This document shows, in pieces, positions 2,647 to 25,490 of a DNA stretch of 34,309 nucleotides; positions within the stretch are counted from its first letter, which is position 1; every line of letters starts with the position of its first letter. The stretch lies in IMG/VR virus record IMGVR_UViG_2872152978_000008. One strand, 5' to 3'. Source of the stretch: a virus (lineage: Duplodnaviria > Heunggongvirae > Uroviricota > Caudoviricetes). The translations under genes and the position numbers were made by a program. Below the pieces are notes generated by a model that saw only the letters and a list, made by a program, of their open reading frames with translations, was not told the DNA's origin and made no database searches.

Positions 2647-3815
<1,169 letters not shown>

Positions 3816-3857
3816 CCACTTCACGCCAGAGTTTTATTTGAGATCGCAAACAGGGAG

Positions 3858-5984: not shown

Positions 5985-6055
5985 GTAAGCGTACAGCCTG
6001 AACCGTCTGGTCAGAATCTGACGAATTAGACAAAGTGGTGTCCACCAAATAAGTA

Positions 6056-6801: not shown

Positions 6802-6849
6802 GCCTCTTTATCCTGGTCGACGCTGAATGAGCCTGGTAATATACCCGGT

Positions 6850-8387: not shown

Positions 8388-8424
8388 CACATCCCCGTCA
8401 ATACGGTTCTTGCTGCACGCTTAC

Positions 8425-10068: not shown

Positions 10069-10167
10069 CGTAGATCATGCAGGTGCATGAAAACCACTAC
10101 ATAAAGCGGGCAGGTAATGCTGCCAACTTACTGATTTAGTGTATGATGGTGATTTTAAGGTGCTTGC

Positions 10168-10443
10168 GTGGCTTCCATTTCCATCAGATGTCCTTCCTGC
10201 TCCGCTACTGAAGGCGTGGTGCGTAACGGCAAAAGCACTGCCGGACATCAGCGCTATCTCTGCTCTCATTGCCGTAAAACATGGCAACTACAGTTCACTT
10301 ACACCGCCTCTCAGCCCGGTACGCACCAGAAAATCATTGATATGGCCATGAATGGCGTCGGATGTCGCGCCAGTGCACGCATTATGGGCGTTGGCCTCAA
10401 CACGGTTTTACGTCACTTAAAAAACTCAGGCCGCAGTCGGTAA
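10168..10443 (+). CDS. insA: IS1 InsA
   Basis: [42 protein letters not shown]... is the canonical IS1 InsA. Confidence 0.9.
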
Positions 10444-10865
10444 CCTCGCGCATACAACCGGGCAGTGATGTGATTGTCTGCGCTGAAATGGACGAACAGT
10501 GGGGCTACGTCGGTGCTAAATCACGTCAGCGCTGGCTGTTTTACGCGTATGACAGGATACGGAGGACGGTTGTGGCGCACGTCTTCGGTGAACGCACTCT
10601 GACCACACTGGAGCGTCTTCTGAGCCTGCTGTCGGCCTTTGAGGTCGTGGTATGGATGACGGATGGCTGGCCGCTGTATGAATCACGCCTGAAGGGAAAG
10701 CTGCACGTTATCAGCAAGCGTTACACTCAGCGCATTGAGCGACATAATCTGAATCTGAGACAACATCTGGCAAGGCTGGGACGGAAGTCACTGTCGTTCT
10801 CAAAATCGGTGGAGCTGCATGACAAGGTCATCGGGCATTATCTGAACATAAAACACTATCAGTAA
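10362..10865 (+). CDS. insB: IS1 InsB (expressed as InsAB' by -1 frameshift)
   Basis: -1 frame relative to insA; canonical IS1 InsB sequence. Confidence 0.85.
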
Positions 10866-10889
10866 GTTGGAGTCATTACCAGCGGGCAG

Positions 10890-10910
10890 GCGTGGCGGGG
10901 ATACGATTGC
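10890..10910. other. cos-like motif GGCGTGGCGGGGATACGATTG
   Basis: First 13 nt identical to the 186 cohesive-end sequence as I recall it (GGCGTGGCGGGGAAAGCAT). It sits immediately right of the IS1 target duplication, where GC-rich phage DNA changes to the AT-rich cassette. From memory, not verified. Confidence 0.3.
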
Positions 10911-10976
10911 GCGCTAGGTATAAGTGTGTAAAATAATTCCAAAATAAATCATCACCAATGAAGTGAGAGGGTAATA

Positions 10977-12626
10977 ATGTTAGTCAAGAAAAATAAAAAT
11001 TATAGTTTATATTTTTTAATTACAAATAATCAACAGATATCTGATTCTGGTAATTATATAAAAATAGTCCCATCAAGAAGCGATTGGAATGATTTTGGAT
11101 ATTTGAGTAGAGTCGAAATATCTATTTTTAATAAAAAAGAGTGTAAGGATATAATTTCACTGAATGGTTATATTGGTTTTTTGAATTCAGAGGAGGAACG
11201 AAATGGAAAAGCAGAACTGATAAGGCGAGTGAAAAAAAAGGAAGAATCTAATTTAAAGGATGAGGGGTTTAATGATTATTTTGTCATGCTTCAGGATATG
11301 AATAATTATCGAAGACTAGTAAGATTTTTTGGGGTGAATGAATCCAAATATATATTAAATTTCATTAATGATGTTGTTTCTAAGAAAAGTGACGCTAGTG
11401 CAGAGAATTTGAGGAAAAAAGCAATCTCTTCTGATATCTTTAATAAATCTTTCATTAGAGAGTCTGAGTCGTATTTTACTTTCAAAAATGCAGGAACAGT
11501 TCTTTCCGGTATTCAATATGAGGAGTTGGGTAATTTATCACAGCACATCAAGATTAGCTATTCGAATAAAGTTAATGAAGAAGATGTATCTTATGTTTTT
11601 AATTTTGATCACGAGCATGATTTACCAAAAAGAATTTCCATAATTATAGGCGAGAATGGTGTAGGAAAAAGCCAAACGCTTAGAGAAATCGCATTGGCTG
11701 CGATTAAAGGAAAGGATAATTTGGTGGCTGTAGTTGATTCTAACGGTGTGAGCATTGAAGAACGAATTCAAATTAGTAGGCTCATTGCTTTTTCTCCAAC
11801 AAATGAAAGTAAGTGTTCATTTCCAACCGATAAAAGAATAAAATCATTGATATGGTACAAAAGATTGACTTTAAATCGTGAATCAAAATCCAAATTAAAC
11901 TTGAATGATTTAATAGTGCAACTAGCGAGGAGTAACGACGCTATCGGCTATAATCAAAGGTGGAATATATTTGTTGATGCACTGAGTGTTCTAAATAGTA
12001 ACAACGATTTAGTAATCAAATGTGGCGGTGAAAATTCACCATTTGTTAAATTAAATGAGCTTAATTCTCGAGGCGAAGAATCTAGACTATCATTATATTC
12101 TGAAATTATTCTCTCTGGCGAGCCTTTGAGGCTTATTGAAAATAAATGTTACCCTTTGAGTAGTGGGGAAATATCGTTTATTAAGTTTTGTGTACAAGTC
12201 TGTTTGTATATTGAGAATGGGACTCTTCTATTAATAGATGAGCCAGAAACACATCTCCATCCTTCATTTATTAATAAATTTATGGCATTGCTTGATAATT
12301 TATTAGAAAAGACAGGCTCTTCAGCTATCATAGCAACGCATTCGGTTTATCTTGTTCGGGAGGTTTTTAAGGAGCAAGTGACAATACTCAGAAGACGAGA
12401 TGATGGGGTAATTGTTAGCGAAAAACCGAGATTGAGTACTTTTGGGGCGAATATAGGAAATATCTCATATTTTGTTTTCGGTGAGAGTGAACCAACTCAA
12501 ATTTTAAATAAAGTAAAAAACAATATAATTGCAAAGAATATGTCTTGGGATGATGTTGAATCTAAATATAGCGAGGACTTATCACTTAATGTATTAACTG
12601 CGTTGAGAAATGAAATGGGCAATTGA
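10977..12626 (+). CDS. ABC/AAA15-type ATPase with ~220-aa N-terminal extension (PtuA-like defence ATPase candidate)
   Basis: Walker A GENGVGKSQ (~aa 226), ABC signature-like LSSGE, Walker B LLLIDEPETHLHP, H-loop ATHS. GAGAGGG SD before ATG. Very AT-rich relative to the flanking prophage. Confidence 0.75.
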   Translation: MLVKKNKNYSLYFLITNNQQISDSGNYIKIVPSRSDWNDFGYLSRVEISIFNKKECKDIISLNGYIGFLNSEEERNGKAELIRRVKKKEESNLKDEGFNDYFVMLQDMNNYRRLVRFFGVNESKYILNFINDVVSKKSDASAENLRKKAISSDIFNKSFIRESESYFTFKNAGTVLSGIQYEELGNLSQHIKISYSNKVNEEDVSYVFNFDHEHDLPKRISIIIGENGVGKSQTLREIALAAIKGKDNLVAVVDSNGVSIEERIQISRLIAFSPTNESKCSFPTDKRIKSLIWYKRLTLNRESKSKLNLNDLIVQLARSNDAIGYNQRWNIFVDALSVLNSNNDLVIKCGGENSPFVKLNELNSRGEESRLSLYSEIILSGEPLRLIENKCYPLSSGEISFIKFCVQVCLYIENGTLLLIDEPETHLHPSFINKFMALLDNLLEKTGSSAIIATHSVYLVREVFKEQVTILRRRDDGVIVSEKPRLSTFGANIGNISYFVFGESEPTQILNKVKNNIIAKNMSWDDVESKYSEDLSLNVLTALRNEMGN

Positions 12627-13491
12627 AATGAATAAATTAAAAAGACCTGTTTTTAAAGATTATTCTGCATTTAAAAAACTATCTGCAAATAAGAGATTAA
12701 AACATCATTCTGTTCTGAATGGACAGGATACATTTATACTTAATGCATATAGATCGTACATAAAGAATAAAGGGTATCTTAATGTCAATTCTTGTGGCGT
12801 ATTGAGTAACAATATTGCTGAAGCTTTGAGATATTATTATAACAATCCCGCAAAGTGTTTATCTATAATTGATGATATAAGAGCAGCTAATTCTAACTCT
12901 CTATGTCCAATGTGTGGTTCAATGCATAGCGGGACTTTGGATCATGTTTTACCCAAGGAAAACTATCCAGAATTTTCTTTATTCACTAAGAATTTGGTTC
13001 CTGCTTGCAAATGTAATACTTTCAAAAGTACTACTATAGCTAATTCTGCAGGCCATCGGATGCTGCATCCATATTTTGATAATATATTAAAACAAAGATT
13101 AATATGTGCTAATTTTTCTAAATTAGGGCGAACACCTACAATTGATGTAAAAATCATAATTGACCCAATGTCACCAGAATATAACAATGTTAAGTATCAT
13201 CTTGATAATGTTGTTATCAAGAATAATATTAAGGGGTATTTGTCTGAACAATGGGAGTCGTTTTACTTATATCCTGAGCTTGTTATTAGAGGACTGAATA
13301 AGAGTCTTTCTACTTATAGCGATGTATATGAGTTGTTGACTCGCGAGTTGTTGCTGTTGGATGAAAAACATAAAGGTAAAAATAATTGGAATTCGGTTTT
13401 TGTAGCTGGGTTAATTCGACCTGATGTGATTAGGTGGATACTCTGTGAATTACATTTAGGTAACAGAAGTCCAGACGGTCGTCTCATATGA
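12610..13491 (+). CDS. HNH endonuclease (PtuB-like defence nuclease candidate)
   Basis: CPMCGSMHSGTLDHVLPKENYPEFSLFTKNLVPACKCNTFK carries the CxxC...DH...N...CxCN HNH/zinc-finger signature. Start overlaps the ATPase stop by 17 nt (alternative ATG at 12628), suggesting translational coupling. Confidence 0.75.
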   Translation: MKWAIEMNKLKRPVFKDYSAFKKLSANKRLKHHSVLNGQDTFILNAYRSYIKNKGYLNVNSCGVLSNNIAEALRYYYNNPAKCLSIIDDIRAANSNSLCPMCGSMHSGTLDHVLPKENYPEFSLFTKNLVPACKCNTFKSTTIANSAGHRMLHPYFDNILKQRLICANFSKLGRTPTIDVKIIIDPMSPEYNNVKYHLDNVVIKNNIKGYLSEQWESFYLYPELVIRGLNKSLSTYSDVYELLTRELLLLDEKHKGKNNWNSVFVAGLIRPDVIRWILCELHLGNRSPDGRLI

Positions 13492-13501
13492 TTTTTTGCA
13501 T

Positions 13502-13527
13502 CTTCAGCGTGTATCTGCACGCTGAAG
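13502..13527. repeat. Perfect 10-bp inverted repeat (CTTCAGCGTG-TATCTG-CACGCTGAAG) downstream of the HNH gene
   Basis: Stem-loop 11 nt after the HNH stop; no canonical U-tract on either strand, so terminator function is uncertain. Confidence 0.5.
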
Positions 13528-13647
13528 AAATTCATAAAAACTGCTGCCTATTAATAAATTTTTTTAGCTGAGTTAAAGAACCTCATTTAGTGATTACGTT
13601 AAGTAGCTAGTTTATAACTATCAAATTTAACAATGTTCTCACTTACC

Positions 13648-14628
13648 AATTTATTTCCATCATTCTTTTTTGTAACGGTATTAACTCGTTACGTACAAAC
13701 ACCAGGCTCGCCTTCTCCACATCCCCAAACCCCCGACATTATTAGGCATAATCCCCATCATTTGCGGTGGCACACGATGCGCCGCCATCATGTCATCCCG
13801 GCTCACGTTCTTGATGTTCAGAAACTCATCCTTCGCCGCGACTTCTGACAACGGGATGATCTGAAGCCCGTCCTTTTTGCCGTTAGGCGAGTACATAAAC
13901 AGATTGCGGAAGTTACCTGGTCCTTTGGCGCTTTTCATCGCATTGCGGAGGTTGTTCACATCCTCCTGGTTTTGCGCGGCATCGGTCATGTACATGATGA
14001 AGCCTGCATGACTGCCGTTAATGTAATACTATCGGCGGAACAGCGTGGCGGACTCGTTGAGCAGGGCTGACGGAATGGCAGAAAGGTAACCTGGCAGGCC
14101 GTAGATCTCTTGGTTGATGTCCGGTTCCATCAGATGAAAGATGCTTCCTTTCGTGAACTGATACGGCTGCGTGGTCATGCCGTATTGCACAAACCAGTAG
14201 GTATCCAGGTCTAATCCGCGTCGGGTGTATTTTGCCAGAGCAGGCTCAAGAGCGATGACCTCTCCGAACCGGTTTGTGCGTTTCTCCAGGTAAGCGTTAC
14301 CAAATACCAGATAATCCTGCACAAAACGTGAAAAAGCCTGCTGGCTGAGCAGCGGGTGAGGGATGTAGGTACTGATCAGAATGTTGCATTTCACCGCAAT
14401 TGGTGAACTGTGATGCACGGCGGCGCGGAAGGTGCGCGCCAGTCCGTCAAAACTCACTGGCGGCTCATACCAGCGATCTGTCTGTACGCATTCCACATAG
14501 TCCAGTAGTTCACGGCGGTCCAGAACCGGAACGGGATCGCCGAAGCTGAATGCTTCGGCTGAAGTCTGGTTTTTATGCTGGGTCTGTTTCGTCGCCGCAG
14601 CGCGGTTCTTCTTACTCTTTCCCATCAA
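13648..14628 (-). pseudogene. Q: Portal protein gpQ with in-frame TAG (14029-14031) and a probable 1-bp deletion near 13727-13729
   Basis: ORFs 14029-14628 and 13681-13995 share a frame: ...ATLFRR*YYINGSHAGFIMYMTD.... Downstream the frame decays to GGLGMWRRRAWCLYVTS*, while adding one T restores a protein-like GGFGDVEKASLVFVRNELIPLQ... continuation to ~13648. Confidence 0.8.
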
Positions 14629-16391
14629 AAAATCTCCACAATATTGCTGGTATTGGCGGACTCGCCCTGCAGCGGTTCGTTAAACAGTGCGTGCATTGTT
14701 GCCCAGGCCAGATCGGCATGGCTGGCTTCTTCGCTGCGGCTGGCTTCATAGGTCGGGCGGTTGCCGCTGGCGGTGGTGGCGCGACGGATTGCCATGAATG
14801 ACTGCGCAATGTCGGTGTGCCCGGCGTCAAACTCAAGACGGCGGTGGCTGATAATGTCGTAGGCCTTGAGTACCAGGGCGTTTTTAACGTTGGGGTTGTA
14901 GACAAACTCCCGGACGGCAGGAAAAAACGCTTTCACGTTCTCGTAAACCCCGTGACCAACGCCGGTTGAGTCGATGCCGATATAGGTCACGTTGTACTGT
15001 TCAGTCAGTTTTTTGATGGCGTAAGCCTGGGCGCGAAAGTCCATTCCGCGCCACTGGTGACGCTCAAGAATGCGGAACTTACCGCCTGGCACGGCTGGCG
15101 GTGCCACCACCACGCATCCGGCGCTGTCGCCGTTCTGCGTACCTTTTGCCGGGTCATAACCGATCCACACTTCGCGCCAGCCAAACGGGCGCAGGGCCAG
15201 TGCATGAAAGTCGGTCCAGACTTCCCAGCTGTCCACCATGCACGCCTGCAATTCGCTGAGCGGGAACACGGACGCGAGATCGTCCACGAACTCGCACATC
15301 AGCAGGTTCTGGTATTCGTCAGGGCTGTACTCCATGCGCAACTGGTCAAGGTCGAACAGGTTACAGGCGCCGCGCACCGCATCTTCCACGGTGACTATCT
15401 GGCGGTATTGCCCGTCTGCGCACAGCAGGCCGGGGGCCAGATTGCTGTGGGACAGGTCGATGTCCACCTTGTCAGCTTTGTTGCGCCCACGGTTGAACAG
15501 CGCACCGGACCAGAACGGATAAGCACTGTGGGTCAGACTGGATGGTGTGGAAAAATAGGTCTGCCGCCATTTCTTGTGAATAGCCATACCAGAAGCCACT
15601 TTGCGTAGCTCCTGAAATTTCGGTATCCAGAAATATTCATCCAGATACAGGTTACCGTGATAACTCTGGGCAGTGCGGGCATTGGTGCCGAGGAAATACA
15701 GTGTGGCCCCGTTGGGAAGCACCATCGGATCGCCTTTCAGCTCCACCTCCACTTCTTTGGCAAAGTCGATGATGTACTGTTTGAAGACGTGGGCCTGTGC
15801 CTTACTGGCAGAAAGGAAAATCTGGTTACGTCCGGTAAGCAGGGCGTCAATCAGGGCTTCACGGGCAAAATAGAAGGTCGCGCCGATCTGGCGTGACTTC
15901 AGCAGGTTGCGGATGCGGTTGGTTTTTCCGGCTTCCCACCAGTGGCGCTGGTAGTTGAACATGGAGGAATGGAAATTTTTTTCCAGCTTCTCAATCTGGT
16001 CATCGGTGAAAACATTCTTTTCAGGCTGACGGCGTGGGCCTTTGTTGCGGTTGGCGACGTTAGGGTTTAAGTCGGCTTCGTTGCCGCCATTGTTAAACTT
16101 GCCGATCCGCGCGTGGCGCTCAGACTGGCGCGCCAGCAGGTCAATATCTTTGAAATCTTTCCCTTCTTTGTGCTCCTTCATGATGAGCTGGCAGTAGCGT
16201 GCGGCGGTGGTGAGCTGCATCTGATCCAGAGGCCCATAGTCACCCCACTTGTCGCGTTTTTTCCAGCTGTAAACGGTTGCAACTTTCTCGCCCAGCATTT
16301 CAGCAATGCGGGCTACGCGGTATCCCTGAAAGTACAGCAGCATGGCCTGCCGACGGGGATCGAGATCTGCGGGTGTCAGTGTGGTGTTCAT
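14625..16391 (-). CDS. P: Terminase large (ATPase) subunit gpP
   Basis: 588-aa ORF, size and sequence consistent with P2 gpP; divergent from O as in P2. Confidence 0.9.
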   Translation of the reverse strand: MNTTLTPADLDPRRQAMLLYFQGYRVARIAEMLGEKVATVYSWKKRDKWGDYGPLDQMQLTTAARYCQLIMKEHKEGKDFKDIDLLARQSERHARIGKFNNGGNEADLNPNVANRNKGPRRQPEKNVFTDDQIEKLEKNFHSSMFNYQRHWWEAGKTNRIRNLLKSRQIGATFYFAREALIDALLTGRNQIFLSASKAQAHVFKQYIIDFAKEVEVELKGDPMVLPNGATLYFLGTNARTAQSYHGNLYLDEYFWIPKFQELRKVASGMAIHKKWRQTYFSTPSSLTHSAYPFWSGALFNRGRNKADKVDIDLSHSNLAPGLLCADGQYRQIVTVEDAVRGACNLFDLDQLRMEYSPDEYQNLLMCEFVDDLASVFPLSELQACMVDSWEVWTDFHALALRPFGWREVWIGYDPAKGTQNGDSAGCVVVAPPAVPGGKFRILERHQWRGMDFRAQAYAIKKLTEQYNVTYIGIDSTGVGHGVYENVKAFFPAVREFVYNPNVKNALVLKAYDIISHRRLEFDAGHTDIAQSFMAIRRATTASGNRPTYEASRSEEASHADLAWATMHALFNEPLQGESANTSNIVEIF

Positions 16392-16533
16392 GGCACAAAC
16401 CTACAGCCTTGAATGAAGGCTTTCCCCGCCTGCGGTTTGTGTGGTTGTCGGTACAAATACCGCGCATTGTTTCACTGCCCCTATCACCGCAACCATAAGG
16501 CTCCAGTAAGTTTTTTCTAACGGAGCACGGCTC

Positions 16534-17367
16534 ATGACAGTGAAAGCAAAGCGTTTTCGCATCGGGGTGGAAGGTGCCACCACCGACGGACGCGAAATCC
16601 AGCGTGAATGGCTGGAACAGATGGCAGCCAGCTATAACCCGGCGGTGTATACCGCGCTGATTAACCTTGAGCACATCAAGTCTTATCTGCCGGACAGCAC
16701 CTTTAACCGCTACGGCAAGGTGACGGCGCTGTTTGCTGAAGAAATCACGGAAGGTCCGCTGGCAGGCAAGATGGCGCTGTATGCTGACGTTGAGCCAACG
16801 GAGTCCCTGGTGGAACTGGTGAAAAAAGGCCAGAAATTATTCACCTCTATGGAAGTCAGCCCGAAGTTCGCTGATACGGGCAAAGCCTACCTGGTCGGCC
16901 TGGCTGCCACTGATGACCCTGCCAGTCTGGGCACTGAAATGCTGACATTCAGCGCCAGTGCAGCCCATAACCCGCTGGCAAACCGCAAGCAGAATCCCGC
17001 CAATCTCTTTACCGCCGCAGAGGAAACGGTGATCGAACTGGAAGAAGTCCAGGACGACAAACCGTCCCTGTTTGCCCGCGTCACGGCGCTGTTTACCAAA
17101 AAAGAGCAGTCCGATGACGCCCGGTTCTCTGATGTGCATAAGGCCGTGGAGCTGGTCGCCACTGAGCAGCAGAACCTGAGCGCACGCACCGAAAAATCCC
17201 TGTCTGAGCAGGAAGAACGCCTGTCTGAGCTGGAGACTGCCCTGCAGGCACAGCAAACCGCCTTTAACGAACTGGTGGACAAGCTGAGTCATGAAGACAG
17301 CCGCCAGGACTACCGCCAGCGTGCAACAGGCGGTAACGCCCCCGCTGACACTCTGACCAATTGCTGA
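16534..17367 (+). CDS. O: Capsid scaffolding protein gpO
   Basis: 277 aa with Ala/Glu/Gln-rich coiled-coil C-terminal half, upstream of the major capsid gene. Confidence 0.85.
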   Translation: MTVKAKRFRIGVEGATTDGREIQREWLEQMAASYNPAVYTALINLEHIKSYLPDSTFNRYGKVTALFAEEITEGPLAGKMALYADVEPTESLVELVKKGQKLFTSMEVSPKFADTGKAYLVGLAATDDPASLGTEMLTFSASAAHNPLANRKQNPANLFTAAEETVIELEEVQDDKPSLFARVTALFTKKEQSDDARFSDVHKAVELVATEQQNLSARTEKSLSEQEERLSELETALQAQQTAFNELVDKLSHEDSRQDYRQRATGGNAPADTLTNC

Positions 17368-17383
17368 TGGAGCACAAAACCTG

Positions 17384-18442
17384 ATGAAGAAGAATACCCG
17401 CTTTGCTTTTAACGCTTACCTGCAGCAACTGGCGCGTCTGAACGGTGTGGCAGTTGAAGAACTGTCCAGCAAGTTCACCGTAGAGCCGTCCGTGCAGCAG
17501 ACGCTGGAAGACCAGATCCAGCAGTCCGCCGCTTTCCTGACTCTGATTAACGTCACGCCAGTGACTGAGCAGTCCGGTCAGCTGCTGGGGTTGGGAGTTG
17601 GCAGCACCATTGCCGGAACCACTGATACCACTGCGAAAGAGCGTGAACCTGTCGATCCGACGCTGATGGTCGATGTGGAATATAAATGCGAGCAGACCAA
17701 CTTTGACACGGTGCTGACCTACGCGAAGCTGGACCTGTGGGCGAAGTTTCAGGATTTTCAGGTGCGTATCCGTGACGCCATTGTGAAACGTCAGGCACTG
17801 GACCGCATCATGATCGGCTTTAATGGCGTGAAGCGTGCGAAAACCTCCAACCGTAGCGAAAACCCGCTGCTGCAGGATGTGAATAAAGGCTGGCTGCAGA
17901 AAATCCGTGAGGATGCACCGGATCACGTCATGGGCAGCACCACCACGGGCGGTGAAACCACACCGGGCGCAGTGAAAGTCGGGAAAGGTGGCGAATATGC
18001 CAACCTGGACGCCGTGGTGATGGATGCCGTCAATGAGCTTATCGACGTGGTCTACCAGGACGATGACGATCTGGTGGTGATTTGCGGTCGTGAACTGCTG
18101 TCTGACAAGTATTTCCCGCTGGTCAACAAAGAGCAGGAAAACAGTGAAAAACTGGCTGCCGATATGATCATCAGTCAGAAACGCATGGGTGGCCTGCAGG
18201 CCGTGCGTGCGCCGTTCTTCCCGCCGAATGCGCTGCTGATCACCCGTCTGGATAACCTGTCCATCTACTGGCAGGAAGACACCCGCCGCCGTTCAGTTAT
18301 CGACAACCCGAAACGTGACCGGATTGAAAACTTTGAATCCGTTAACGAAGCCTATGTGGTTGAGGACTACCGCTGCGCCGCACTGGTGGAAAACATCCAG
18401 ATTAGTGATTTCAGCGCCGCCGCAGCCGAAACCGGAGCGTAA
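17384..18442 (+). CDS. N: Major capsid protein gpN
   Basis: 352 aa; position and length as P2 gpN. Confidence 0.9.
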   Translation: MKKNTRFAFNAYLQQLARLNGVAVEELSSKFTVEPSVQQTLEDQIQQSAAFLTLINVTPVTEQSGQLLGLGVGSTIAGTTDTTAKEREPVDPTLMVDVEYKCEQTNFDTVLTYAKLDLWAKFQDFQVRIRDAIVKRQALDRIMIGFNGVKRAKTSNRSENPLLQDVNKGWLQKIREDAPDHVMGSTTTGGETTPGAVKVGKGGEYANLDAVVMDAVNELIDVVYQDDDDLVVICGRELLSDKYFPLVNKEQENSEKLAADMIISQKRMGGLQAVRAPFFPPNALLITRLDNLSIYWQEDTRRRSVIDNPKRDRIENFESVNEAYVVEDYRCAALVENIQISDFSAAAAETGA

Positions 18443-18445
18443 TCC

Positions 18446-19096
18446 ATGAGCCTGAGTCCCGCACGGCAGCATCGCCTGCGCGTTCAGGCTGAACAGGCCG
18501 CCCGTGAGGGTGGCAGTGTTCGCCACGCATCGGGCTATGACCTGATGCTGCTGCAACTGGCGGAAGACCGCCGCCGTCTCAAGGGCGTTCAGTCCACGGT
18601 CAAAAAAGCGGAAATCAAAGTGGAGCTGCTGCCGAAGTACGCCGCCTGGGCGGAGGGTGTCCTGGCTGCCGGAGGCGCTCAACAGGATGACGTGCTGATG
18701 TACGTGATGTTGTGGCGCATTGATGCCGGAGATTATGCCGGGGCGCTGGAGATCGGGCGTCATGCCCTGCGTCATGGATGGGTGATGCCGCTGGGCAACC
18801 GCAACGTGCAGACCGTGCTGACAGAGGAAATGGCAGATGCAGCGCAGAGCGCAATGCTTGCCGCCACCGGCTTTGATGCCGATCTGTTGCTGAAGACGCT
18901 GGAGCTGACAGACGGTCTGGATATGCCGGACCAGTCACGGGCACGTCTGCATAAAGCGATTGGCGCGGTCCTGAGTGAAAGCAATCCGGCTTCCGCCCTT
19001 AATCATCTCAACCATGCGTTACAGCTCGATCCCCGCTGTGGCGTGAAAAAAGACAAACAGCAGCTGGAGCGCAGACTGCGCAATGACAGCCGCTGA
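18446..19096 (+). CDS. M: Terminase small subunit gpM
   Basis: 216 aa immediately after N, as in P2. Confidence 0.8.
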   Translation: MSLSPARQHRLRVQAEQAAREGGSVRHASGYDLMLLQLAEDRRRLKGVQSTVKKAEIKVELLPKYAAWAEGVLAAGGAQQDDVLMYVMLWRIDAGDYAGALEIGRHALRHGWVMPLGNRNVQTVLTEEMADAAQSAMLAATGFDADLLLKTLELTDGLDMPDQSRARLHKAIGAVLSESNPASALNHLNHALQLDPRCGVKKDKQQLERRLRNDSR

Positions 19097-19191
19097 CAGA
19101 ACGTGCCCCCGCGCACGGGCGGCACGGGGTGGCGAAAGGCACAGCCACATCAAAAACCCGTCCACCGCCCTTTATTTCAGGAGAAAGCAGC

Positions 19192-19638
19192 ATGAAGTTT
19201 GTTGCGCCAGAACAGGCACCGGAACAGGCGGAAATCATTAGAAATACGCCGTTCTGGCCTGATGTGGACCTGTCGGAGTTTCGCAGTGTCATGCGCACTG
19301 ACGGCACGGTGACGCAGCCGCGTTTAAAGTAGGTTGCACTGTCGGCAATTTCGGAGGTTAACGCAGAGCTGTATGAGTTTCGCAGACGCCAGCAGATGCT
19401 GGGGTATGCGTCGGAACAGCTGGACGGGAAAAGTGAGCGCATTCAGCACTATTTCAACGCGGTTTACTGCTGGGCTCGCGCCATGCTCAACGAACGTTTC
19501 CAGGACTATGACGCCACGGCATCCGGTGCGAAGCGGGGCGAAGAACTGGCGGAAGCAAGCGGTGATTTGTGGCGTGACGCCCGCTGGGCCATCAGCCGGG
19601 TGCAGGACGCGCCGCACTGCACAGTGGAGCTTATCTGA
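19192..19638 (+). pseudogene. L: Head completion protein gpL interrupted by in-frame TAG at 19330-19332
   Basis: AGGAG SD then ATG at 19192. MKFVAPEQ...TQPRLK*VALSAISEVNAELYEFRRRQQMLGYASEQ...DLWRDARWAISRVQDAPHCTVELI is continuous in one frame apart from the TAG. Confidence 0.75.
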
Positions 19639-19841
19639 TGAAAGTGCGTGCGCATCAGTATGACACGGTGGACGCGCTTTGCTGGCGTCATTACGGGCGC
19701 ACGCAGGGTGTCACGGAGCAGGTACTGAAGGCAAATCCGGGGCTTGCCGAATACGGCCCCTTTGTACCTCACGGGCTGCAGGTGGAGCTGCCGGACATTC
19801 CGACCACCACCACCGTGCAGACCGTCCAGCTATGGGACTGA
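19638..19841 (+). CDS. X: Small tail protein gpX
   Basis: 67 aa, same size and position as P2 gpX. Confidence 0.8.
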   Translation: MKVRAHQYDTVDALCWRHYGRTQGVTEQVLKANPGLAEYGPFVPHGLQVELPDIPTTTTVQTVQLWD

Positions 19842-19844
19842 ATT

Positions 19845-20060
19845 ATGACGCTTGAGCGAATCAGCGCCTTTATCACGTATTGCATCGCCGTCGTGCTGGC
19901 CTGGCTGGGCGATTTGTCCATCAAGGATGCCTCAACGCTGGGCGGCCTGATGATTGGTGTGCTGATGCTGGCTATCAACTGGTACTACAAACACAAAGCC
20001 TACCAGCTTCTGCGCGACGGGCAGATCTCGCGGGAGGACTATGAATCCATCAATCGTTAA
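19845..20060 (+). CDS. Holin (possible pinholin)
   Basis: 71 aa with two hydrophobic segments and a charged C-terminus, immediately upstream of the lysozyme gene. Confidence 0.6.
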   Translation: MTLERISAFITYCIAVVLAWLGDLSIKDASTLGGLMIGVLMLAINWYYKHKAYQLLRDGQISREDYESINR

Positions 20061-20553
20061 ACGCTGCCTTGTCGGGGCCGTGCTGGCTATTGCTGCCACG
20101 CTGCCGGGTTTTCAGCAGCTTCACACCTCCGTGGAGGGACTGAAACTGATTGCCGATTACGAAGGTTGTCGTCTGCAGCCGTATCAGTGCAGCGCGGGTG
20201 TCTGGACCGACGGTATTGGTAATACGTCGGGCGTCATTCCCGGCAAAACCATTACGGAGCGACAGGCAGCAGAAGGGCTGATCTCCAACGTGCTGCGTGT
20301 GGAGCGGGCGCTGGAAAGGTGTGTGAAGCAACAGCCGCCGCAGAAGGTGTATGACGCTGCGGTGTCGTTTGCCTTCAACGTGGGTACGGGCAATGCCTGC
20401 AGTTCCACGCTGGTGAAATTGCTCAATCAGCGGCGCTGGGCGGATGCGTGCCGACAGTTGCCGCGCTGGGTTTATGTGAAAGGTGTTTTTAATCAGGGGC
20501 TGGATAACCGCCGTGCGCGGGAGATGGCCTGGTGTTTACAGGGAGCAAACTGA
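20041..20553 (+). CDS. Phage lysozyme (GH24) with N-terminal signal-anchor-release segment (SAR endolysin)
   Basis: N-terminal hydrophobic stretch CLVGAVLAIAATLPGF, then lysozyme-like core (LIADYEGCRLQPYQCSAGVWTDGIGNT). Confidence 0.75.
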   Translation: MNPSIVKRCLVGAVLAIAATLPGFQQLHTSVEGLKLIADYEGCRLQPYQCSAGVWTDGIGNTSGVIPGKTITERQAAEGLISNVLRVERALERCVKQQPPQKVYDAAVSFAFNVGTGNACSSTLVKLLNQRRWADACRQLPRWVYVKGVFNQGLDNRRAREMAWCLQGAN

Positions 20554-20554
20554 A

Positions 20555-20932
20555 ATGAAAAAGAAATTAATCAGCGGGCTGTTTCTGATGTTATGGATGG
20601 CGCTGTTAATCGCAGCAATAGTGTATCCGCAGGGGATTTTTCCGGTACTGGCAGCGTCCGGCGTTTGGGTAGCCTGTTTACTGACATGGGCGGTAATTCC
20701 GGTAGCACTGGCTTCGTTAATTAAGAATGGCCCGCTCTGGCAGGAGTTGAGGGCATCTTTACTGAAGACAATTACCCGAAAAGAAAACGTATTTATCAGC
20801 TGGGTGATACGATTGCTGATTGTCGTCAGTCTCGCCTGGACGGGGTGGGCCATTACCCTGGTCTTTTATCTGCTGACCGTTATTGCCTTCTGGATCACCC
20901 GTAATCAGATGGCGCAACAGGTAGCCGCATGA
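20555..20932 (+). CDS. LysA-like lysis-associated membrane protein
   Basis: Strongly hydrophobic multi-TM protein starting MKKKLISGLF with GGGAG SD; in the lysA position of P2. Confidence 0.5.
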   Translation: MKKKLISGLFLMLWMALLIAAIVYPQGIFPVLAASGVWVACLLTWAVIPVALASLIKNGPLWQELRASLLKTITRKENVFISWVIRLLIVVSLAWTGWAITLVFYLLTVIAFWITRNQMAQQVAA

Positions 20933-21357
20933 ACCGGTTGCTGCTGGTTGTGCTGGCGTTATTATTGGCGGCGCTGGGCTGGCAGACGTGGCGGCTGGCT
21001 GATGCCAGCCAGACCATCAGCACGCAGGCAGACGAGCTGCAGAGCAAAAGCCAGGCACTGGCAAAGAGCAACAGCCAGCTTATCAGCCTGTCCATTCTGA
21101 CTGAAACCAATAACCGGGAGCAGGCGCGGCTCTATGCCGAAGCAGAACAGACCAGTGTACTGCTGAGACAACGACAACGCCGGATTGAGGAACTGAAACG
21201 TGAGAACGAGGATTTACGTCGCTGGGCTGATACTCCTTTGCCTGCTGACATTATCCGGCTGCGGGAACGTCCGGCACTCACCGGAGGTGCAGCTTACCGT
21301 CAGTGGTTGTCCGCGAGTGACGCCGTGTCGGCTGGAGCAGGCAGCGCCGCGCACTAA
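20929..21357 (+). CDS. LysB / Rz-like inner-membrane spanin
   Basis: N-terminal TM segment then a coiled-coil-rich periplasmic domain (QADELQSKSQALAKSNSQ...). Confidence 0.6.
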   Translation: MNRLLLVVLALLLAALGWQTWRLADASQTISTQADELQSKSQALAKSNSQLISLSILTETNNREQARLYAEAEQTSVLLRQRQRRIEELKRENEDLRRWADTPLPADIIRLRERPALTGGAAYRQWLSASDAVSAGAGSAAH

Positions 21358-21490
21358 CGGTGATCTGAATGCGTTGCTGGATGAAACGGAGGCCGCCTGG
21401 GCGGTCTGTGCAGACAAAGTGGACATGATTATTGCGTGTCAGGAGCGAAACAGTGAACAAACCACAATCCCTGCGCCACGCCCTCAATAA
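21200..21490 (+). CDS. LysC / Rz1-like outer-membrane lipoprotein spanin, embedded out of frame in lysB
   Basis: Signal peptide with lipobox LTLSGC, Pro-rich mature part; begins inside lysB in an alternative frame. Confidence 0.6.
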   Translation: MRTRIYVAGLILLCLLTLSGCGNVRHSPEVQLTVSGCPRVTPCRLEQAAPRTNGDLNALLDETEAAWAVCADKVDMIIACQERNSEQTTIPAPRPQ

Positions 21491-21884
21491 AGCAGTGCCT
21501 TATGTCCGTAATAACCCGGACAAACTGCATCTGTTTGTGGATAACGGTTCGCTGGTTGCCTCCGGGGCTAGCTCCATGTCATGGGAGTACCGCTACACCC
21601 TGAACGTGGTGATTGAAGATTTCAGCGGCGACCAGAATCTGCTGATGGCCCCGGTTTTGCTGTGGCTGCGGGATAACCAGCCCGATGCGATCAATAACCC
21701 GGCGTTACGGGAAAAGCTATTCACCTTTGAGGTGGATATTCTGCGCAACGATGTCTGTGATATCAGCCTTAACCTGCAACTGACGGAGCGTGTGCTGGTC
21801 AGCACTGACGGCAGTGTGTCGAACGTTGAAGCGGTAGCGGAACCTGATGAACCTGAAGAAATGTGGACGGTGAAACGTGGCTGA
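21453..21884 (+). CDS. R: Tail completion protein gpR
   Basis: ~143 aa; likely GTG start at 21453 with AGGAGC SD; in the position of P2 R. Confidence 0.7.
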   Translation: MNKPQSLRHALNKAVPYVRNNPDKLHLFVDNGSLVASGASSMSWEYRYTLNVVIEDFSGDQNLLMAPVLLWLRDNQPDAINNPALREKLFTFEVDILRNDVCDISLNLQLTERVLVSTDGSVSNVEAVAEPDEPEEMWTVKRG

Positions 21885-22278
21885 ATTGCAGAAGGTGGAC
21901 GACTGGCTGAGTGCATTATTGGCGAATCTGGAGCCAGCCGCAAGAAGCCGCATGATGCGCCAGCTGGCGCAGGAACTGCGCCGGACACAGCAGCAGAACA
22001 TCAGGATGCAGCGCAATCCAGATGGCAGCAGTTATGAGCCGCGCAGGGTAACAGCACGCAGCAAAAAGGGGCGCATCAAACGTCAGATGTTTACAAAGCT
22101 GCGCACCACAAAATACCTGAAAACTGCAGCCAGCGCCGATTCTGCCAGCGTACAGTTTGAAGGTAGGGTGCAGCGCATTGCCCGTATTCACCATTACGGC
22201 TTGAGTGATCGCGTCAGTCGAAAAGGTATTTATACCATCTATGCGAAAAGGCAGTTATTAGGTTTTAATGTCCGGTAA
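21877..22278 (+). pseudogene. S: Tail completion protein gpS, 3'-truncated by IS1
   Basis: ORF runs into the IS1 left end and stops on a TAA inside the IS1 terminus (...RQLLGFNVR*). Confidence 0.7.
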
Positions 22279-22328
22279 TGCTGCCAACTTACTGATTTAG
22301 TGTATGATGGTGATTTTAAGGTGCTTGC

Positions 22329-22604
22329 GTGGCTTCCATTTCCATCAGATGTCCTTCCTGCTCCGCTACTGAAGGCGTGGTGCGTAACGGCAAAAGCACT
22401 GCCGGACATCAGCGCTATCTCTGCTCTCATTGCCGTAAAACATGGCAACTACAGTTCACTTACACCGCCTCTCAGCCCGGTACGCACCAGAAAATCATTG
22501 ATATGGCCATGAATGGCGTCGGATGTCGCGCCAGTGCACGCATTATGGGCGTTGGCCTCAACACGGTTTTACGTCACTTAAAAAACTCAGGCCGCAGTCG
22601 GTAA
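22329..22604 (+). CDS. insA: IS1 InsA (copy 2)
   Basis: Identical translation to copy 1 InsA. Confidence 0.9.
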
Positions 22605-23026
22605 CCTCGCGCATACAACCGGGCAGTGATGTGATTGTCTGCGCTGAAATGGACGAACAGTGGGGCTACGTCGGTGCTAAATCACGTCAGCGCTGGCTGT
22701 TTTACGCGTATGACAGGATACGGAGGACGGTTGTGGCGCACGTCTTCGGTGAACGCACTCTGGCCACACTGGAGCGTCTTCTGAGCCTGCTGTCGGCCTT
22801 TGAGGTCGTGGTATGGATGACGGATGGCTGGCCGCTGTATGAATCACGCCTGAAGGGAAAGCTGCACGTTATCAGCAAGCGTTACACTCAGCGCATTGAG
22901 CGACATAATCTGAATCTGAGACAACATCTGGCAAGGCTGGGACGGAAGTCACTGTCGTTCTCAAAATCGGTGGAGCTGCATGACAAGGTCATCGGGCATT
23001 ATCTGAACATAAAACACTATCAGTAA
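22523..23026 (+). CDS. insB: IS1 InsB (copy 2)
   Basis: As copy 1, with a T-to-A substitution (TLTTLERL to TLATLERL). Confidence 0.85.
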
Positions 23027-23036
23027 GTTGGCAGCA

Positions 23037-23519
23037 TTACCATGCAGCCCTCACAATATAGTTAAAAGCGACATTTCGTGGGCGTGTTTCATTCGCACCT
23101 GCAGGTTTAGTCGTTGCCGCAACAACACCACCCTCTGTAATAGCCGGGTTGGGAATTGGGTAATTATCGAAGTCAATGGCCGGAGACAGGGGCGTGATTT
23201 GTTTTAAAATCGTGGTGCCTGTAAAACTTTCCAGAGTCTGGTCGTTAGTTCGTGAAGTCCAGATTCCCCAATAGTGGTTATGACTGACAATCGCACCGTC
23301 CTGAAGCGTTAATAATCCCCTTCCGTTATCCACTCCACGTCCGTCATCCCAGCCACGAATAAACTCACCGCGTAAATCAGGCAATTTATTTGTCGGGTAA
23401 GCCTTTGCCAGTTCCGGGTATTCTTCAGCAGAAAAAGCCGCACCATTGCATTTCAGCCAGCCTGTCGGCGGAGTGGCTGAAGGCCACGGAACAGGCACAC
23501 CAACAGGTAATGCAGAGCC
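23037..23519 (-). pseudogene. Orphan tail-fibre variable C-terminal segment, clipped by IS1
   Basis: ...GWLKCNGAAFSAEEYPELAKAYP...NVAFNYIVRAAW is a typical tail-fibre C-terminal variable domain. It has no constant N-terminal part, lies inverted next to an invertase, and its 3' end runs into IS1. Confidence 0.6.
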
Positions 23520-23545
23520 TTCTCCCAAACCAACGTTTAAGAAAA
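23520..23545. other. Candidate 26-bp invertase crossover site (gix/cix/pix-like) TTCTCCCAAACCAACGTTTAAGAAAA
   Basis: Imperfect dyad resembling recalled Hin/Gin/Cin recombination sites, located at the 5' end of the inverted fibre segment and 55 bp upstream of the invertase gene. Confidence 0.45.
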
Positions 23546-23600
23546 TGCAGAGATAATGGCTAACTGGCATCATCCCCGGTTTTTATTCAGGGGATTGATC

Positions 23601-24167
23601 ATGCTTATTGGCTATGTACGCGTGTCAACAAATGACCAGAACACCGATTTGCAACGTAATGCACTGAACTGCGCGGGATGTGAGCGGATTTTTGAGGATA
23701 AAATCAGTGGCACTAAGCCCGACAGACCGGGGCTTAAAAAACTGCTCAGGACACTATCGGCAGGAGACACGCTGGTTGTCTGGAAGCTGGACAGACTGGG
23801 ACGCAGTATGCGGCATCTTGTTACGCTGATAGAAGAGTTGCGCCAGCGTGGTGTGAATTTCCGAAGCCTGACTGACAGTATTGATACCAGTACCCCAATG
23901 GGCCGTTTCTTTTTTCACGTCATGGGGGCTCTGGCTGAAATGGAACGTGAACTGATAGTTGAACGTACCAGAGCAGGGCTGGCTGCAGCTCGTGCCAAAG
24001 GCAGAGTAGGTGGACTCCGTCCTAAGTTGACCACCGAACAGTGGGCACAGATTGGACGTTTACTCGAGGCCGGAGAATCAAGACAGCGTATTGCACTGAT
24101 TTTTGATGTGGGCGTTTCTACCATTTATAGAAAATTTCCGGCGAATGAGAGCAATGAATCGCCCTGA
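23601..24167 (+). CDS. Serine DNA invertase (Hin/Gin/Pin/Cin family)
   Basis: MLIGYVRVSTNDQNTDLQRNAL...GDTLVVWKLDRLGRSMRHL... is the N-terminal resolvase catalytic domain with the active-site Ser in VRVSTNDQ; C-terminal HTH. Confidence 0.85.
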   Translation: MLIGYVRVSTNDQNTDLQRNALNCAGCERIFEDKISGTKPDRPGLKKLLRTLSAGDTLVVWKLDRLGRSMRHLVTLIEELRQRGVNFRSLTDSIDTSTPMGRFFFHVMGALAEMERELIVERTRAGLAAARAKGRVGGLRPKLTTEQWAQIGRLLEAGESRQRIALIFDVGVSTIYRKFPANESNESP

Positions 24168-24309
24168 GTCAGTATTATTTTGATTTTTCCTGTAAGCGGA
24201 CAAATACCGTCATTTTGTGTGAATAACGACACAACTGCGCTTAGCTGTTTGTCAGGCACAATCACTTCAACATAGGGCGAAGCCTAATCCAATCAGGAGG
24301 TTCGCCACT

Positions 24310-25481
24310 ATGGCTCAGGATTACCACCACGGGGTGCGCGTTGTTGAAGTCAACGAAGGCACCCGATCCATTACCACGGTGAGCACCGCCATCGTGGGTA
24401 TGGTCTGCACGGGCGATGATGCCGATGCAAAAATGTTTCCTCTTAATAAACCTGTGCTGATCACTGATGTGCTGACCGCCAGCGGTAAAGCGGGTGAGTC
24501 TGGCACGCTGGCCCGTTCGCTGGATGCCATCGCTGACCAGGCAAAACCCGTGACCGTTGTTGTGCGTGTGCCGCAGGGTGAAACGGAAGAAGAAACCACA
24601 ACCAATATCATTGGCGCAGTGACCGCCGAGGGTAAAAAAACAGGTATGAAAGCCCTGTTATCTGCCCAGTCACAGCTCGGCGTTAAACCGCGCATTCTCG
24701 GCGTGCCAGGTCACGACACGAAGGCGGTAGCTACTGAGTTGCTGAGCGTGGCGCAAAGCCTGCGTGGATTTGCTTACCTGTCAGCGTATGGTTGCAAGAC
24801 GGTGCAGGAAGCAATCACTTACCGTGAAAACTTCAGTCAGCGTGAAGGAATGCTGATCTGGCCCGACTTTACTGGCTGGGACACGGTGCTGAATGCCGAA
24901 GCAACGGCTTATGCCACCGCCCGTGCGCTCGGTCTGCGCGCTAAAATTGATGAGCAGACCGGATGGCACAAAAGCCTGTCCAACGTGGGCGTGAACGGTG
25001 TCACCGGAATTTCTGCTGATGTGTTCTGGGATCTGCAGAACCCGGCAACCGATGCAGGTCTGCTTAACCAGAACGATATCACCACGCTTATCCGCAAAGA
25101 CGGTTTCCGCTTCTGGGTTCCCGCTGTCTGAGCGATGATCCGCTCTTTGCCTTCGAAAACTACACCCGCACGGCGCAGGTGCTGATGGACACGATGGCAG
25201 AAGCGCACATGTGGGCGGTGGACAAACCGCTGAACCCGTCGCTGGCCCGCGACATTATCGAAGGTATCCGCGCCAAAATGCGTAGCCTGGTCAGTCAGGG
25301 CTATCTCATTGGTGGTGATTGCTGGCTGGACGAGTCGGTGAACGATAAAGACACGCTGAAAGCCGGGAAACTCACCATCGATTACGACTACACGCCAGTG
25401 CCGCCACTTGAAAACCTGATGCTGCGTCAGCGCATCACCGATCAGTACCTGGTGAATTTCTCCAGCCAGGTCAGCGCGTAA
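24310..25481 (+). pseudogene. FI: Tail sheath protein FI with a -1 frameshift in the G-run at 25115-25117
   Basis: ORF 24310-25131 ends ...[10 protein letters not shown]. Inserting one G restores ...[35 protein letters not shown]..., which joins ORF 25179-25481. Confidence 0.85.
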
Positions 25482-25490
25482 GGGGACAAC

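What the first reader, a model, noticed from the sequence alone, without database searches (positions are those of the whole stretch)
10105..23050. Two direct IS1 copies bracket an 11.4-kb segment; the second marks deletion of the baseplate and tail-fibre genes
Copy 1 has a 9-bp target duplication (simple insertion near cos). Copy 2 has none, truncates gpS on its left and clips an inverted tail-fibre fragment on its right. Genes expected between S and the invertase (V, W, J, I, H, G in P2) are absent. The direct repeats also make the intervening segment (defence cassette plus head and lysis genes) a substrate for IS1-mediated excision.
Basis: partly seen in the sequence, partly recalled or inferred. 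Interest (0 to 1): 0.55.

Follow-up and report, generated by a model that had tools for sequence, protein, structure and literature searches.

The report
IS1 scars in a decayed Shigella prophage
Two copies of the common jumping gene IS1 sit in a dead P2/186-like prophage of a Shigella dysenteriae genome; one marks a 6-kb loss of the baseplate and tail-fibre genes and the other is a recent insertion into the packaging site, which is ordinary Shigella genome decay.

Summary
Two 768-bp IS1 copies in direct orientation lie at 10113-10880 and 22274-23041. They differ at 4 bases and bracket 11,393 bp.

**Copy 1.** It is a simple insertion with an 8-bp target duplication (AGCGGGCA), not 9 bp. It abuts the 186-like cohesive-end sequence of cos. 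Among the 10 complete genomes compared it occurs only in the window's own genome, Shigella dysenteriae CP026840.1.

**Copy 2.** It has no target duplication. A 99.6%-identical intact prophage at the same chromosomal site (E. coli UPEC-245U) shows that about 6.0 kb is missing there. The loss covers the last 15 codons of S, a DUF5677 gene, V, W, J, I, most of H and the tail-fibre assembly genes.

**The "inverted" fibre fragment.** IS1 did not invert it. It is the normal flipped state of an invertase-controlled tail-fibre segment, seen contiguously in 83 complete E. coli genomes. The deletion removed one of the two crossover sites.

**Spread and context.** The copy-2 junction is indexed in 345 blocks of public assemblies. 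All eight complete genomes whose fetched locus spans both ends carry both junctions. A sister lineage lost the same module through different IS1 junctions, and one member also lost the head and lysis genes next to that IS1. The prophage carries at least nine other lesions.

**Verdict.** No IS1-IS1 recombinant was found. This is an ordinary, already known kind of event.

The parts
10105..10112 (.). Left copy of the 8-bp target duplication AGCGGGCA of IS1 copy 1. These are the last 8 bp of the phage right end before the cos nick.
10113..10880 (+). IS1 copy 1, 768 bp. insA is 10168-10443, insB' is 10362-10865, and the A6C frameshift motif is at 10419-10425. It is a strain-specific simple insertion.
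   Evidence: The junctions occur only in L019 (CP026840.1), and 9 other complete genomes have the empty site.
10881..10888 (.). Right copy of the 8-bp target duplication AGCGGGCA.
10889..10907 (+). cos cohesive-end equivalent, GGCGTGGCGGGGATACGAT. Phage 186 cos is GGCGTGGCGGGGAAAGCAT. IS1 copy 1 separates it from its left-hand flank.
10977..13491 (+). Two-gene cargo in the cos-proximal gpA-gpQ hotspot: an AAA ATPase (10977-12626) and an HNH protein (12610/12628-13491). They match the PADLOC candidate system PDC-M01A/B, which is Septu-like. Both genes are intact.
   Evidence: E 3e-55 and 1e-33. (99.8% and 100% identity to the intact relative). PMC9122126 for the hotspot.
13602..14628 (-). Portal (Q) pseudogene, with a stop at 14029-14031, a 1-bp deletion at 13730 and a 4-bp deletion at 13649.
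   Evidence: The 198-aa fragment is also called in the sister lineage.
14625..19096 (.). Terminase P (minus strand, 14625-16391), scaffold O, capsid N and small terminase M (plus strand). All are full length.
19192..19638 (+). Head-completion L pseudogene, with a Q47 stop at 19330 and an 18-bp in-frame deletion.
19638..21884 (+). X, holin, lysozyme, LysA, LysB, LysC and R. All are full length.
21877..22273 (+). gpS truncated after codon 132 of 147. The open reading frame runs 5 nt into IS1, giving a 133-aa product.
   Evidence: The exact product is indexed in 345 assembly blocks.
22274..23041 (+). IS1 copy 2, 768 bp, with no target duplication. It is the scar of a deletion of about 6.0 kb. Its right inverted repeat is a variant that matches the left one perfectly.
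23042..23534 (-). C-terminal variable part of tail-fibre H (residues 350-513, Collar domain). It lies in the flipped orientation of the invertible segment.
23520..23545 (.). The single remaining 26-bp crossover site, TTCTCCCAAACCAACGTTTAAGAAAA. Its partner site was deleted.
   Evidence: The intact relative has sites at L001 29130-29155 and 30984-31009.
23601..24167 (+). Serine invertase (Resolvase plus HTH_7). The reading frame is intact, but the enzyme has no second site to act on.

Best explanation
The window is a defective P2/186-like prophage inserted between rcdA and ybjL in Shigella dysenteriae CP026840.1. It is decaying under the IS expansion typical of Shigella.

**Copy 2.** It is what remains after an IS1-associated deletion of about 6.0 kb. 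An IS1 sat in the AT-rich 3' end of S or at the tfa/H boundary. The interval between those two points was then lost in one of two ways: IS1 transposase-promoted adjacent deletion (intramolecular transposition), or RecA recombination between two direct IS1 copies. At that moment the invertase-controlled tail-fibre segment was in its flipped orientation. The lost interval was therefore one contiguous block: S codons 133-147, DUF5677, V, W, J, I, H constant part with the left crossover site, Hv', tfa' and tfa. That event is old and is fixed in a clade.

**Copy 1.** It is a much younger simple transposition into cos, with an 8-bp duplication.

**The pair.** The two copies now form 768-bp direct repeats. 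These could in principle recombine and remove cos-proximal cargo, head genes and lysis genes. That step is inferred, not observed.
For: - **Source genome.** The window is 100% identical to CP026840.1. That genome is labelled S. dysenteriae ATCC and has matching size (PMC12679885).
- **What is missing.** The intact relative L001 is 99.6% identical and sits at the same chromosomal site. It supplies the missing genes and fixes the end points at L001 24521 and 29633.
- **Flipped state.** The right flank of copy 2 is collinear with the intact prophage L047, which is in the flipped state. 83 complete E. coli genomes share that arrangement. The crossover sites are identified.
- **Spread of the copy-2 junction.** The S'-IS1 fusion product is indexed in 345 assembly blocks. 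Both junctions are present in all eight complete genomes whose locus spans them. The junction is in none of 5,426 complete E. coli genomes.
- **Copy 1.** It has an 8-bp duplication. The empty site is present in 9 of 10 complete genomes. The target abuts the 186-like cos.
- **Sister lineage.** It has independent junctions at L001 24591 and 30137. Strain L014 has an identical IS1 and an identical right junction, but a further 6,814 bp is gone on the left. IS1-adjacent, one-sided losses therefore really occur in this prophage.
- **Target preference.** Three of the five IS1 deletion junctions lie in DNA of 28-32% GC. IS1 is known to prefer AT-rich targets (from my own knowledge).
- **Already defective.** The IS911-type deletion and the portal stop are shared with the sister lineage, so the prophage was already dead before the tail module was lost.
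Against: - No intermediate genome was found. Such a genome would carry an IS1 with its own target duplication at only one end point and intact tail genes. The choice between adjacent deletion and recombination between two copies is therefore unresolved.
- Only 24 of the 345 blocks were read, so the distribution of copy 1 and of any recombinant is not exhaustively known.
- Some single-base frameshifts in this PacBio-era assembly could be sequencing errors. The tape-measure frameshift, however, is consistent with the gene calls of four other genomes.
Confidence: 0.9

Rival explanations
1. Sub-mechanism A. A single IS1 inserted at one end point. Its transposase then made an adjacent deletion by intramolecular transposition to the other end point. 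One IS1 was kept and the duplication was lost.
For: In sister strain L014, the same IS1 (including a private SNP at position 50) and the same right junction are kept, while 6.8 kb on the left is gone. That is the expected product of a one-ended IS1 deletion. IS1-promoted adjacent deletions are a classical property of IS1, first shown in the gal region in the 1970s (from my own knowledge).
Against: The final structure is identical to that left by recombination between two copies. The variant right inverted repeat of copy 2 is not explained.
Confidence: 0.5
2. Sub-mechanism B. Two independent direct IS1 insertions occurred, one in S and one at the tfa/H boundary. Homologous recombination between them then deleted the interval.
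For: Copy 2 looks like a mosaic. Its body is identical to the sister-lineage IS1, but its right inverted repeat differs by 3 nt. Deletion between homologous IS copies is the mechanism usually invoked in Shigella (PMC7373316).
Against: No two-copy intermediate was seen in any of the roughly 20 complete genomes read.
Confidence: 0.4
3. The IS1-flanked 12.9-kb unit is a Tn9-like composite transposon that arrived as a unit, carrying the defence cassette.
For: Two direct IS1 copies flank a cargo that includes a defence cassette.
Against: - The interior is collinear with the intact prophage at 99.55% identity.
- The outer flanks share no duplication.
- Copy 1 is absent from 9 of 10 genomes that already have the interior and copy 2.
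- The cassette is not on any PLSDB plasmid.
- The copy-1 junction is absent from the species-representative genomes and the JGI metagenomes.
Confidence: 0.02
4. Assembly artefact. Collapse or mis-joining at IS1 repeats created a false S-IS1-H junction, or a false copy 1.
For: IS1 is highly repeated in Shigella, and this assembly series shows variable frameshifts between strains.
Against: The copy-2 junctions recur in many independent long-read and short-read assemblies. Short-read contigs end inside IS1 on both sides. Copy 1 has a clean 8-bp duplication of a site that is single-copy elsewhere.
Confidence: 0.02

Closest known systems
IS1 (IS1 family), with its adjacent deletions and IS-IS recombination as seen throughout Shigella genome decay (Hawkey et al. 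2020, PMC7373316)
   Same: 768 bp long, GGTAATG... terminal repeats, insA/insB' with an A6C frameshift, an 8-bp duplication at copy 1, and a deletion scar without duplication at copy 2. It occurs in an IS1-rich Shigella genome alongside IS911-type and IS66-family elements.
   Different: Nothing essential. Copy 2 carries a right inverted repeat that matches the left one perfectly over 23 bp. Copy 1 and the sister-lineage IS1 carry a different right repeat.
Phage 186 / P2 (Peduoviridae) and related prophages with an invertible tail-fibre segment
   Same: The gene order is int-cI-...-A-dinI-like-cos-cargo-Q-P-O-N-M-L-X-holin-lysozyme-LysABC-R-S ... sheath-tube-E-T-U-D-ogr. The cos sequence is close to that of 186. 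Cargo lies in the gpA-gpQ hotspot (PMC9122126).
   Different: The prophage is defective. It carries four IS elements and a missing baseplate and fibre module. It also has stops or frameshifts in int, Q, L, sheath and T, a replication gene A split by an IS, and a cos split by IS1.
Gin/Cin/Pin/Hin-type serine-invertase switches of tail-fibre genes (Mu G segment, P1 C segment, e14 P segment)
   Same: A serine recombinase sits next to a segment that carries alternative fibre C-termini and assembly genes, bounded by 26-bp inverted crossover sites. Both orientations occur among relatives.
   Different: In the window only one crossover site and one fibre fragment survive, so the switch cannot operate. 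The consensus of these sites is recalled from memory.
Tn9-type composite transposons (direct IS1 copies flanking cargo)
   Same: Two direct IS1 copies flank 11.4 kb that includes a defence cassette.
   Different: The structure formed in place by two separate events of different age. The unit has no flanking duplication, and no second location is known.

Membership tests
IS1 family insertion sequence | Length of about 768 bp with imperfect terminal inverted repeats of about 23 bp starting GGTRATG | tested here: met
   Both copies are 768 bp. The repeats are GGTAATGCTGCCAACTTACTGAT and GGTAATGACTCC... (copy 1) or GGTAATGCTGCC... (copy 2).
IS1 family insertion sequence | insA and insB' reading frames joined by a -1 frameshift at an A6C motif, with InsA and IS1 DDE domains | tested here: met
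   PF03811, PF12759 and PF03400 at E 6e-20 to 3e-74. TTAAAAAACTC is at 10417-10427.
IS1 family insertion sequence | Target duplication of 8-9 bp on simple insertion | tested here: met
   Copy 1 has 8 bp, AGCGGGCA, checked against the empty site. Copy 2 has none, as expected for a deletion scar.
Tn9-like composite transposon | Target duplication flanking the whole IS-cargo-IS unit | tested here: not met
   The outer flanks are ...AGCGGGCA and ATGCAGCC..., which share no repeat.
Tn9-like composite transposon | The unit is found at more than one genomic location | tested here: not met
   The interior is collinear with the prophage. The cassette is not on plasmids. The copy-1 junction is found nowhere else.
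P2/186-like (Peduoviridae) prophage | Characteristic gene order and protein families (GPA, portal, terminase, GPO, P2 capsid, GpR, GpS, sheath, tube, GpE, GpU, GPD, Ogr) | tested here: met
   Annotation of the intact relative, tblastn mapping and Pfam labels on identical loci.
P2/186-like (Peduoviridae) prophage | 19-nt cohesive-end cos site | tested here: met
   Positions 10889-10907 match 186 cos at 16 of 19 positions, and the flanks also align. Function was not tested, and the site is split from its left flank by IS1.
Serine-invertase tail-fibre switch (Gin/Cin/Pin/Hin type) | Serine recombinase gene adjacent to the segment | tested here: met
   Resolvase plus HTH_7, E 3e-53, with an intact 188-aa frame.
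Serine-invertase tail-fibre switch (Gin/Cin/Pin/Hin type) | Two inverted crossover sites bounding the segment | tested here: not met
   Only the site at 23520-23545 remains. The intact relative has two.
PDC-M01 / Septu-like defence cassette | Adjacent PtuA-like ATPase and HNH nuclease genes matching the system's profiles | tested here: met
   PDC-M01A at E 3e-55, PtuA at 1e-31 and PDC-M01B at 1e-33.
PDC-M01 / Septu-like defence cassette | Protection against phage infection | not testable with these tools
   This needs a plaque assay.

The most novel reading that the evidence does not exclude
The two IS1 copies have turned the left arm of a dead prophage into a potentially mobile Tn9-like composite element. 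That arm holds the cos remnant, a Septu-like PDC-M01 defence cassette, and the capsid and lysis genes. IS1 could move the element to plasmids or excise it as a circle, which would be a route for spreading phage-hotspot defence systems without a phage.
Probability: 0.03. Interest if true: 0.4.

Novelty: already known. Interest (0 to 1): 0.15.

Why it matters
It matters little beyond bookkeeping. This is a clean, well-resolved example of how IS1 dismantles prophages in Shigella. It includes a dated order of events, two lineages that lost the same tail module through different junctions, and a strain that shows a further one-sided loss.

There are three practical points:
- The locus should be annotated as a defective prophage.
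- The "inverted" fibre fragment is an invertase state, not an IS1 inversion.
- The intact Septu-like cassette survives in a dead prophage, so it acts as a chromosomal gene rather than a phage one.

The copy-2 junction could serve as a lineage marker. It is indexed in 345 assembly blocks and is absent from 5,426 complete E. coli genomes.

Tried and rejected
- The first look-up of the S'-IS1 fusion protein with a V start found nothing. It worked with an M start.
- I scanned for the copy-1 left junction, which an IS1-IS1 recombinant would also keep. There were no hits in GTDB species-representative genomes or JGI metagenomes.
- The copy-2 junction is also absent from the species representatives. 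This is probably because Shigella is folded into E. coli there.
- A plasmid search for the defence cassette found nothing relevant.
- The S::IS1 junction is in no complete E. coli genome.
- I looked for an intermediate genome with one IS1 plus a duplication and intact tail genes. None appeared among the roughly 20 complete genomes returned.
- The composite-transposon origin and the assembly-artefact reading were rejected (see the rival explanations).
- The DUF5677 gene lost from the S-V gap has no PADLOC match.
- I could not measure how common the copy-2 type right inverted repeat is. Only three full IS1 right ends with distinct flanks are in the fetched loci.
- One script failed because I assumed each fetched locus had its own file. 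Two literature calls failed on term syntax.


Full report
**1. The observation**

A repeat search and base-by-base extension give two IS1 copies, each 768 bp and on the + strand. Copy 1 is 10113-10880 and copy 2 is 22274-23041. They lie 12,161 bp apart start to start and enclose 11,393 bp.

The copies differ at IS position 490 and at positions 759-761 in the right inverted repeat. Pfam finds InsA and the IS1 DDE transposase. The A6C frameshift motif is present.

Copy 1 is flanked by AGCGGGCA on both sides. Copy 2 has no flanking repeat of 5 bp or more.

**2. Where the window comes from**

The window is 100% identical to CP026840.1 over the two overlapping loci fetched. A paper lists that assembly (GCF_002950155.1, 4,716,399 bp) as a Shigella dysenteriae ATCC strain (PMC12679885).

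The window is a P2/186-like prophage. It starts inside int and ends in the chromosomal genes ybjL, ybjM and grxA.

**3. The intact relative and the deletion**

E. coli UPEC-245U carries the same prophage at the same site, between rcdA and ybjL. It is 99.6% identical and every gene is annotated as intact (locus L001).

The blastn map shows two things:
- Window 10881-22273 equals L001 13106-24521.
- Window 23042-23536 equals L001 29633-29139, inverted. From 23520 onward the window rejoins L001 at 30984.

On the left, gpS therefore stops after codon 132 of 147. On the right, the first DNA after IS1 is the last 164 codons of tail-fibre H, on the minus strand.

The missing genes are DUF5677, V, W, J, I, the constant part of H, and the assembly and alternative-fibre genes. 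This amounts to about 6.0 kb.

**4. Why the fibre fragment is inverted**

L001 has two 26-bp inverted sites, at 29130-29155 and 30984-31009. They bound a 1.9-kb segment next to a serine recombinase. The window keeps only a hybrid site at 23520-23545.

The window's arrangement of Hv (minus strand), site and invertase is contiguous in 83 complete E. coli genomes. In one of them, FDAARGOS_1249, the whole series is present: S-V-W-J-I-H-tfa'-tfa(-)-Hv(-)-invertase.

Window 23042-26000 is collinear with that genome. The segment was therefore flipped when the deletion happened, and the loss was one contiguous block ending exactly at the tfa/H boundary. IS1 inverted nothing. The invertase frame is intact, but the enzyme now has only one site.

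**5. Age and spread of the two copies**

The 133-aa S'-IS1 fusion product is indexed in 345 blocks of public assemblies. Both copy-2 junctions are present in all eight complete genomes whose locus spans them (L002-L009). The left junction alone is also seen in eight further loci. The junction is in none of 5,426 complete E. coli genomes.

Copy 1 is present only in the source genome. Nine other complete genomes have the empty site. Short-read contigs of about 13.1-13.3 kb have the length expected for a run from the IS66 element to copy 2 with no copy 1 between them. The copy-1 junction is absent from GTDB representatives and JGI metagenomes.

Copy 2 is therefore old and fixed in a clade. Copy 1 is recent, so the bracketing is a feature of a single strain.

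**6. Copy 1 and cos**

The sequence right after the copy-1 duplication is GGCGTGGCGGGGATACGAT followed by TGCGCGC. It aligns with the annotated cos of phage 186, GGCGTGGCGGGGAAAGCAT followed by TGCGCGC. The DNA left of IS1 aligns with the right end of 186.

The 8-bp target is therefore the last 8 bp before the nick. IS1 separates the cohesive-end sequence from its left flank. That this disables packaging is an inference.

**7. A sister lineage**

Several genomes keep S and gene A intact but have an IS1 joined to L001 24591 on the left and 30137 on the right, with the segment unflipped. These include CP000036, which from my own knowledge is S. boydii Sb227. The same module was thus lost through different junctions.

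Strain CP162059.1 (L014) has an identical IS1, including a private SNP, and the same right junction. Its left junction, however, is at L001 17777, inside the terminase gene. A further 6,814 bp of head and lysis genes has been lost beside the IS1.

**8. Mechanism**

Two routes give the same product:
- adjacent deletion promoted by IS1 transposase;
- recombination between two direct IS1 copies.

No intermediate genome was found. L014 favours one-ended deletions. The mosaic look of copy 2 hints at two parental copies, since its body is identical to the sister-lineage IS1 but its right repeat differs by 3 nt. I leave the split at roughly 50:40.

Three of the five IS1 deletion junctions lie in DNA of 28-32% GC. 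This fits the known preference of IS1 for AT-rich targets (from my own knowledge).

**9. Context of decay**

The prophage carries the following other lesions:

| Lesion | Position | Shared or private |
|---|---|---|
| IS3-family element with IS911-like ends, replacing 1.8 kb of early genes | 2575-3820 | Shared with the sister lineage |
| IS66-family element in gene A, 8-bp duplication | 5985-8424 | Window's lineage |
| Stop codon in int | 430-432 | Not established |
| Stop codon in the portal gene | 14029-14031 | Shared with the sister lineage |
| Two frameshifts in the portal gene | 13730, 13649 | Not established |
| Stop codon in L, plus an 18-bp in-frame deletion | 19330, 19412 | Window's lineage |
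| Frameshift in the sheath gene | 25115 | Not established |
| Frameshift in the tape-measure gene | 27013 | The same 183-aa fragment is called in four other genomes |

The shared lesions show that the prophage was already dead before the tail module was lost.

The ATPase-HNH cargo next to cos is intact. It matches the PADLOC candidate system PDC-M01, which is Septu-like. It lies in the documented gpA-gpQ hotspot (PMC9122126).

**10. Verdict**

The phenomenon is textbook IS-driven decay in Shigella (PMC7373316).

There is no evidence that the bracketed segment moves or has been excised. A composite-transposon origin is excluded. Interest is low.

Noticed in passing
window 2575-3820: An IS3-family element with IS911-like ends (from memory), with orfA at 2611-2949 and orfB at 2976-3815. 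It replaces 1.8 kb of the early region present in the intact relative (cII 3' end, fil, DUF5347, DUF2732, traR, dam 5' end; L001 7435-9269). Both junctions are shared with the sister (Sb227-type) lineage, so this is the oldest IS event in the prophage.
   Followed up: partly
window 5985-8424: An IS66-family element (tnpA, tnpB, tnpC) inserted in replication gene A with an 8-bp duplication, CATTGACG. It is specific to the window's lineage. Its tnpC carries a private 1-bp deletion at 7028, giving 447 aa against 512 aa in other strains.
   Followed up: partly
window 430-432, 13649, 13730, 14029-14031, 19330, 19412, 25115, 27013: Point lesions relative to the intact relative: a stop in int; a stop, a 1-bp deletion and a 4-bp deletion in the portal gene; a stop and an 18-bp in-frame deletion in L; a 1-bp deletion in the sheath gene; and a 1-bp deletion in the tape-measure gene. 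The portal stop is shared with the sister lineage. The 183-aa tape-measure fragment is called in four other genomes. Some single-base indels could be assembly errors.
   Followed up: partly
window 23018-23041 (right end of IS1 copy 2): The right inverted repeat of copy 2 reads GGTAATGCTGCC..., a perfect 23-bp match to the left repeat. Copy 1 and the sister-lineage IS1 have GGTAATGACTCC.... All genomes with the copy-2 junction share the variant. Its origin is unknown; it could be an allele, a conversion or a recombinant.
   Followed up: partly
L014 (CP162059.1) 14576-15343, compared with L035: A sister-lineage strain lost 6,814 bp (5' part of terminase P through S) immediately left of an otherwise identical IS1 with an identical right junction. 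This is a natural one-sided IS1-adjacent deletion of the head and lysis module.
   Followed up: yes
window 23520-24167: An intact serine invertase gene with only one surviving crossover site. The switch is orphaned.
   Followed up: yes
L001 24572-25591 (absent from the window): The intact relative carries a 339-aa DUF5677 gene on the opposite strand between S and V, at the position of P2 orf30. It has no PADLOC match, and other relatives such as L047 lack it. It may be a second small cargo site.
   Followed up: partly
window 10977-13491: The ATPase plus HNH cassette (PDC-M01, Septu-like) is 99.8-100% identical to the E. coli relative and is intact in nearly all Shigella loci read. The exact ATPase and HNH sequences are indexed in 1,221 and 1,555 assembly blocks, which also include non-Shigella genomes such as the E. 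coli relative. One strain (L036) has a truncated ATPase.
   Followed up: partly
L012, L021, L034, L041 (other strains, early region): Several related strains carry an extra IS1 inserted into or next to the IS911-type element. Others (L018/L039) have the left part of the prophage replaced by IS110- and IS66-family elements. The locus differs from strain to strain through IS activity.
   Followed up: no
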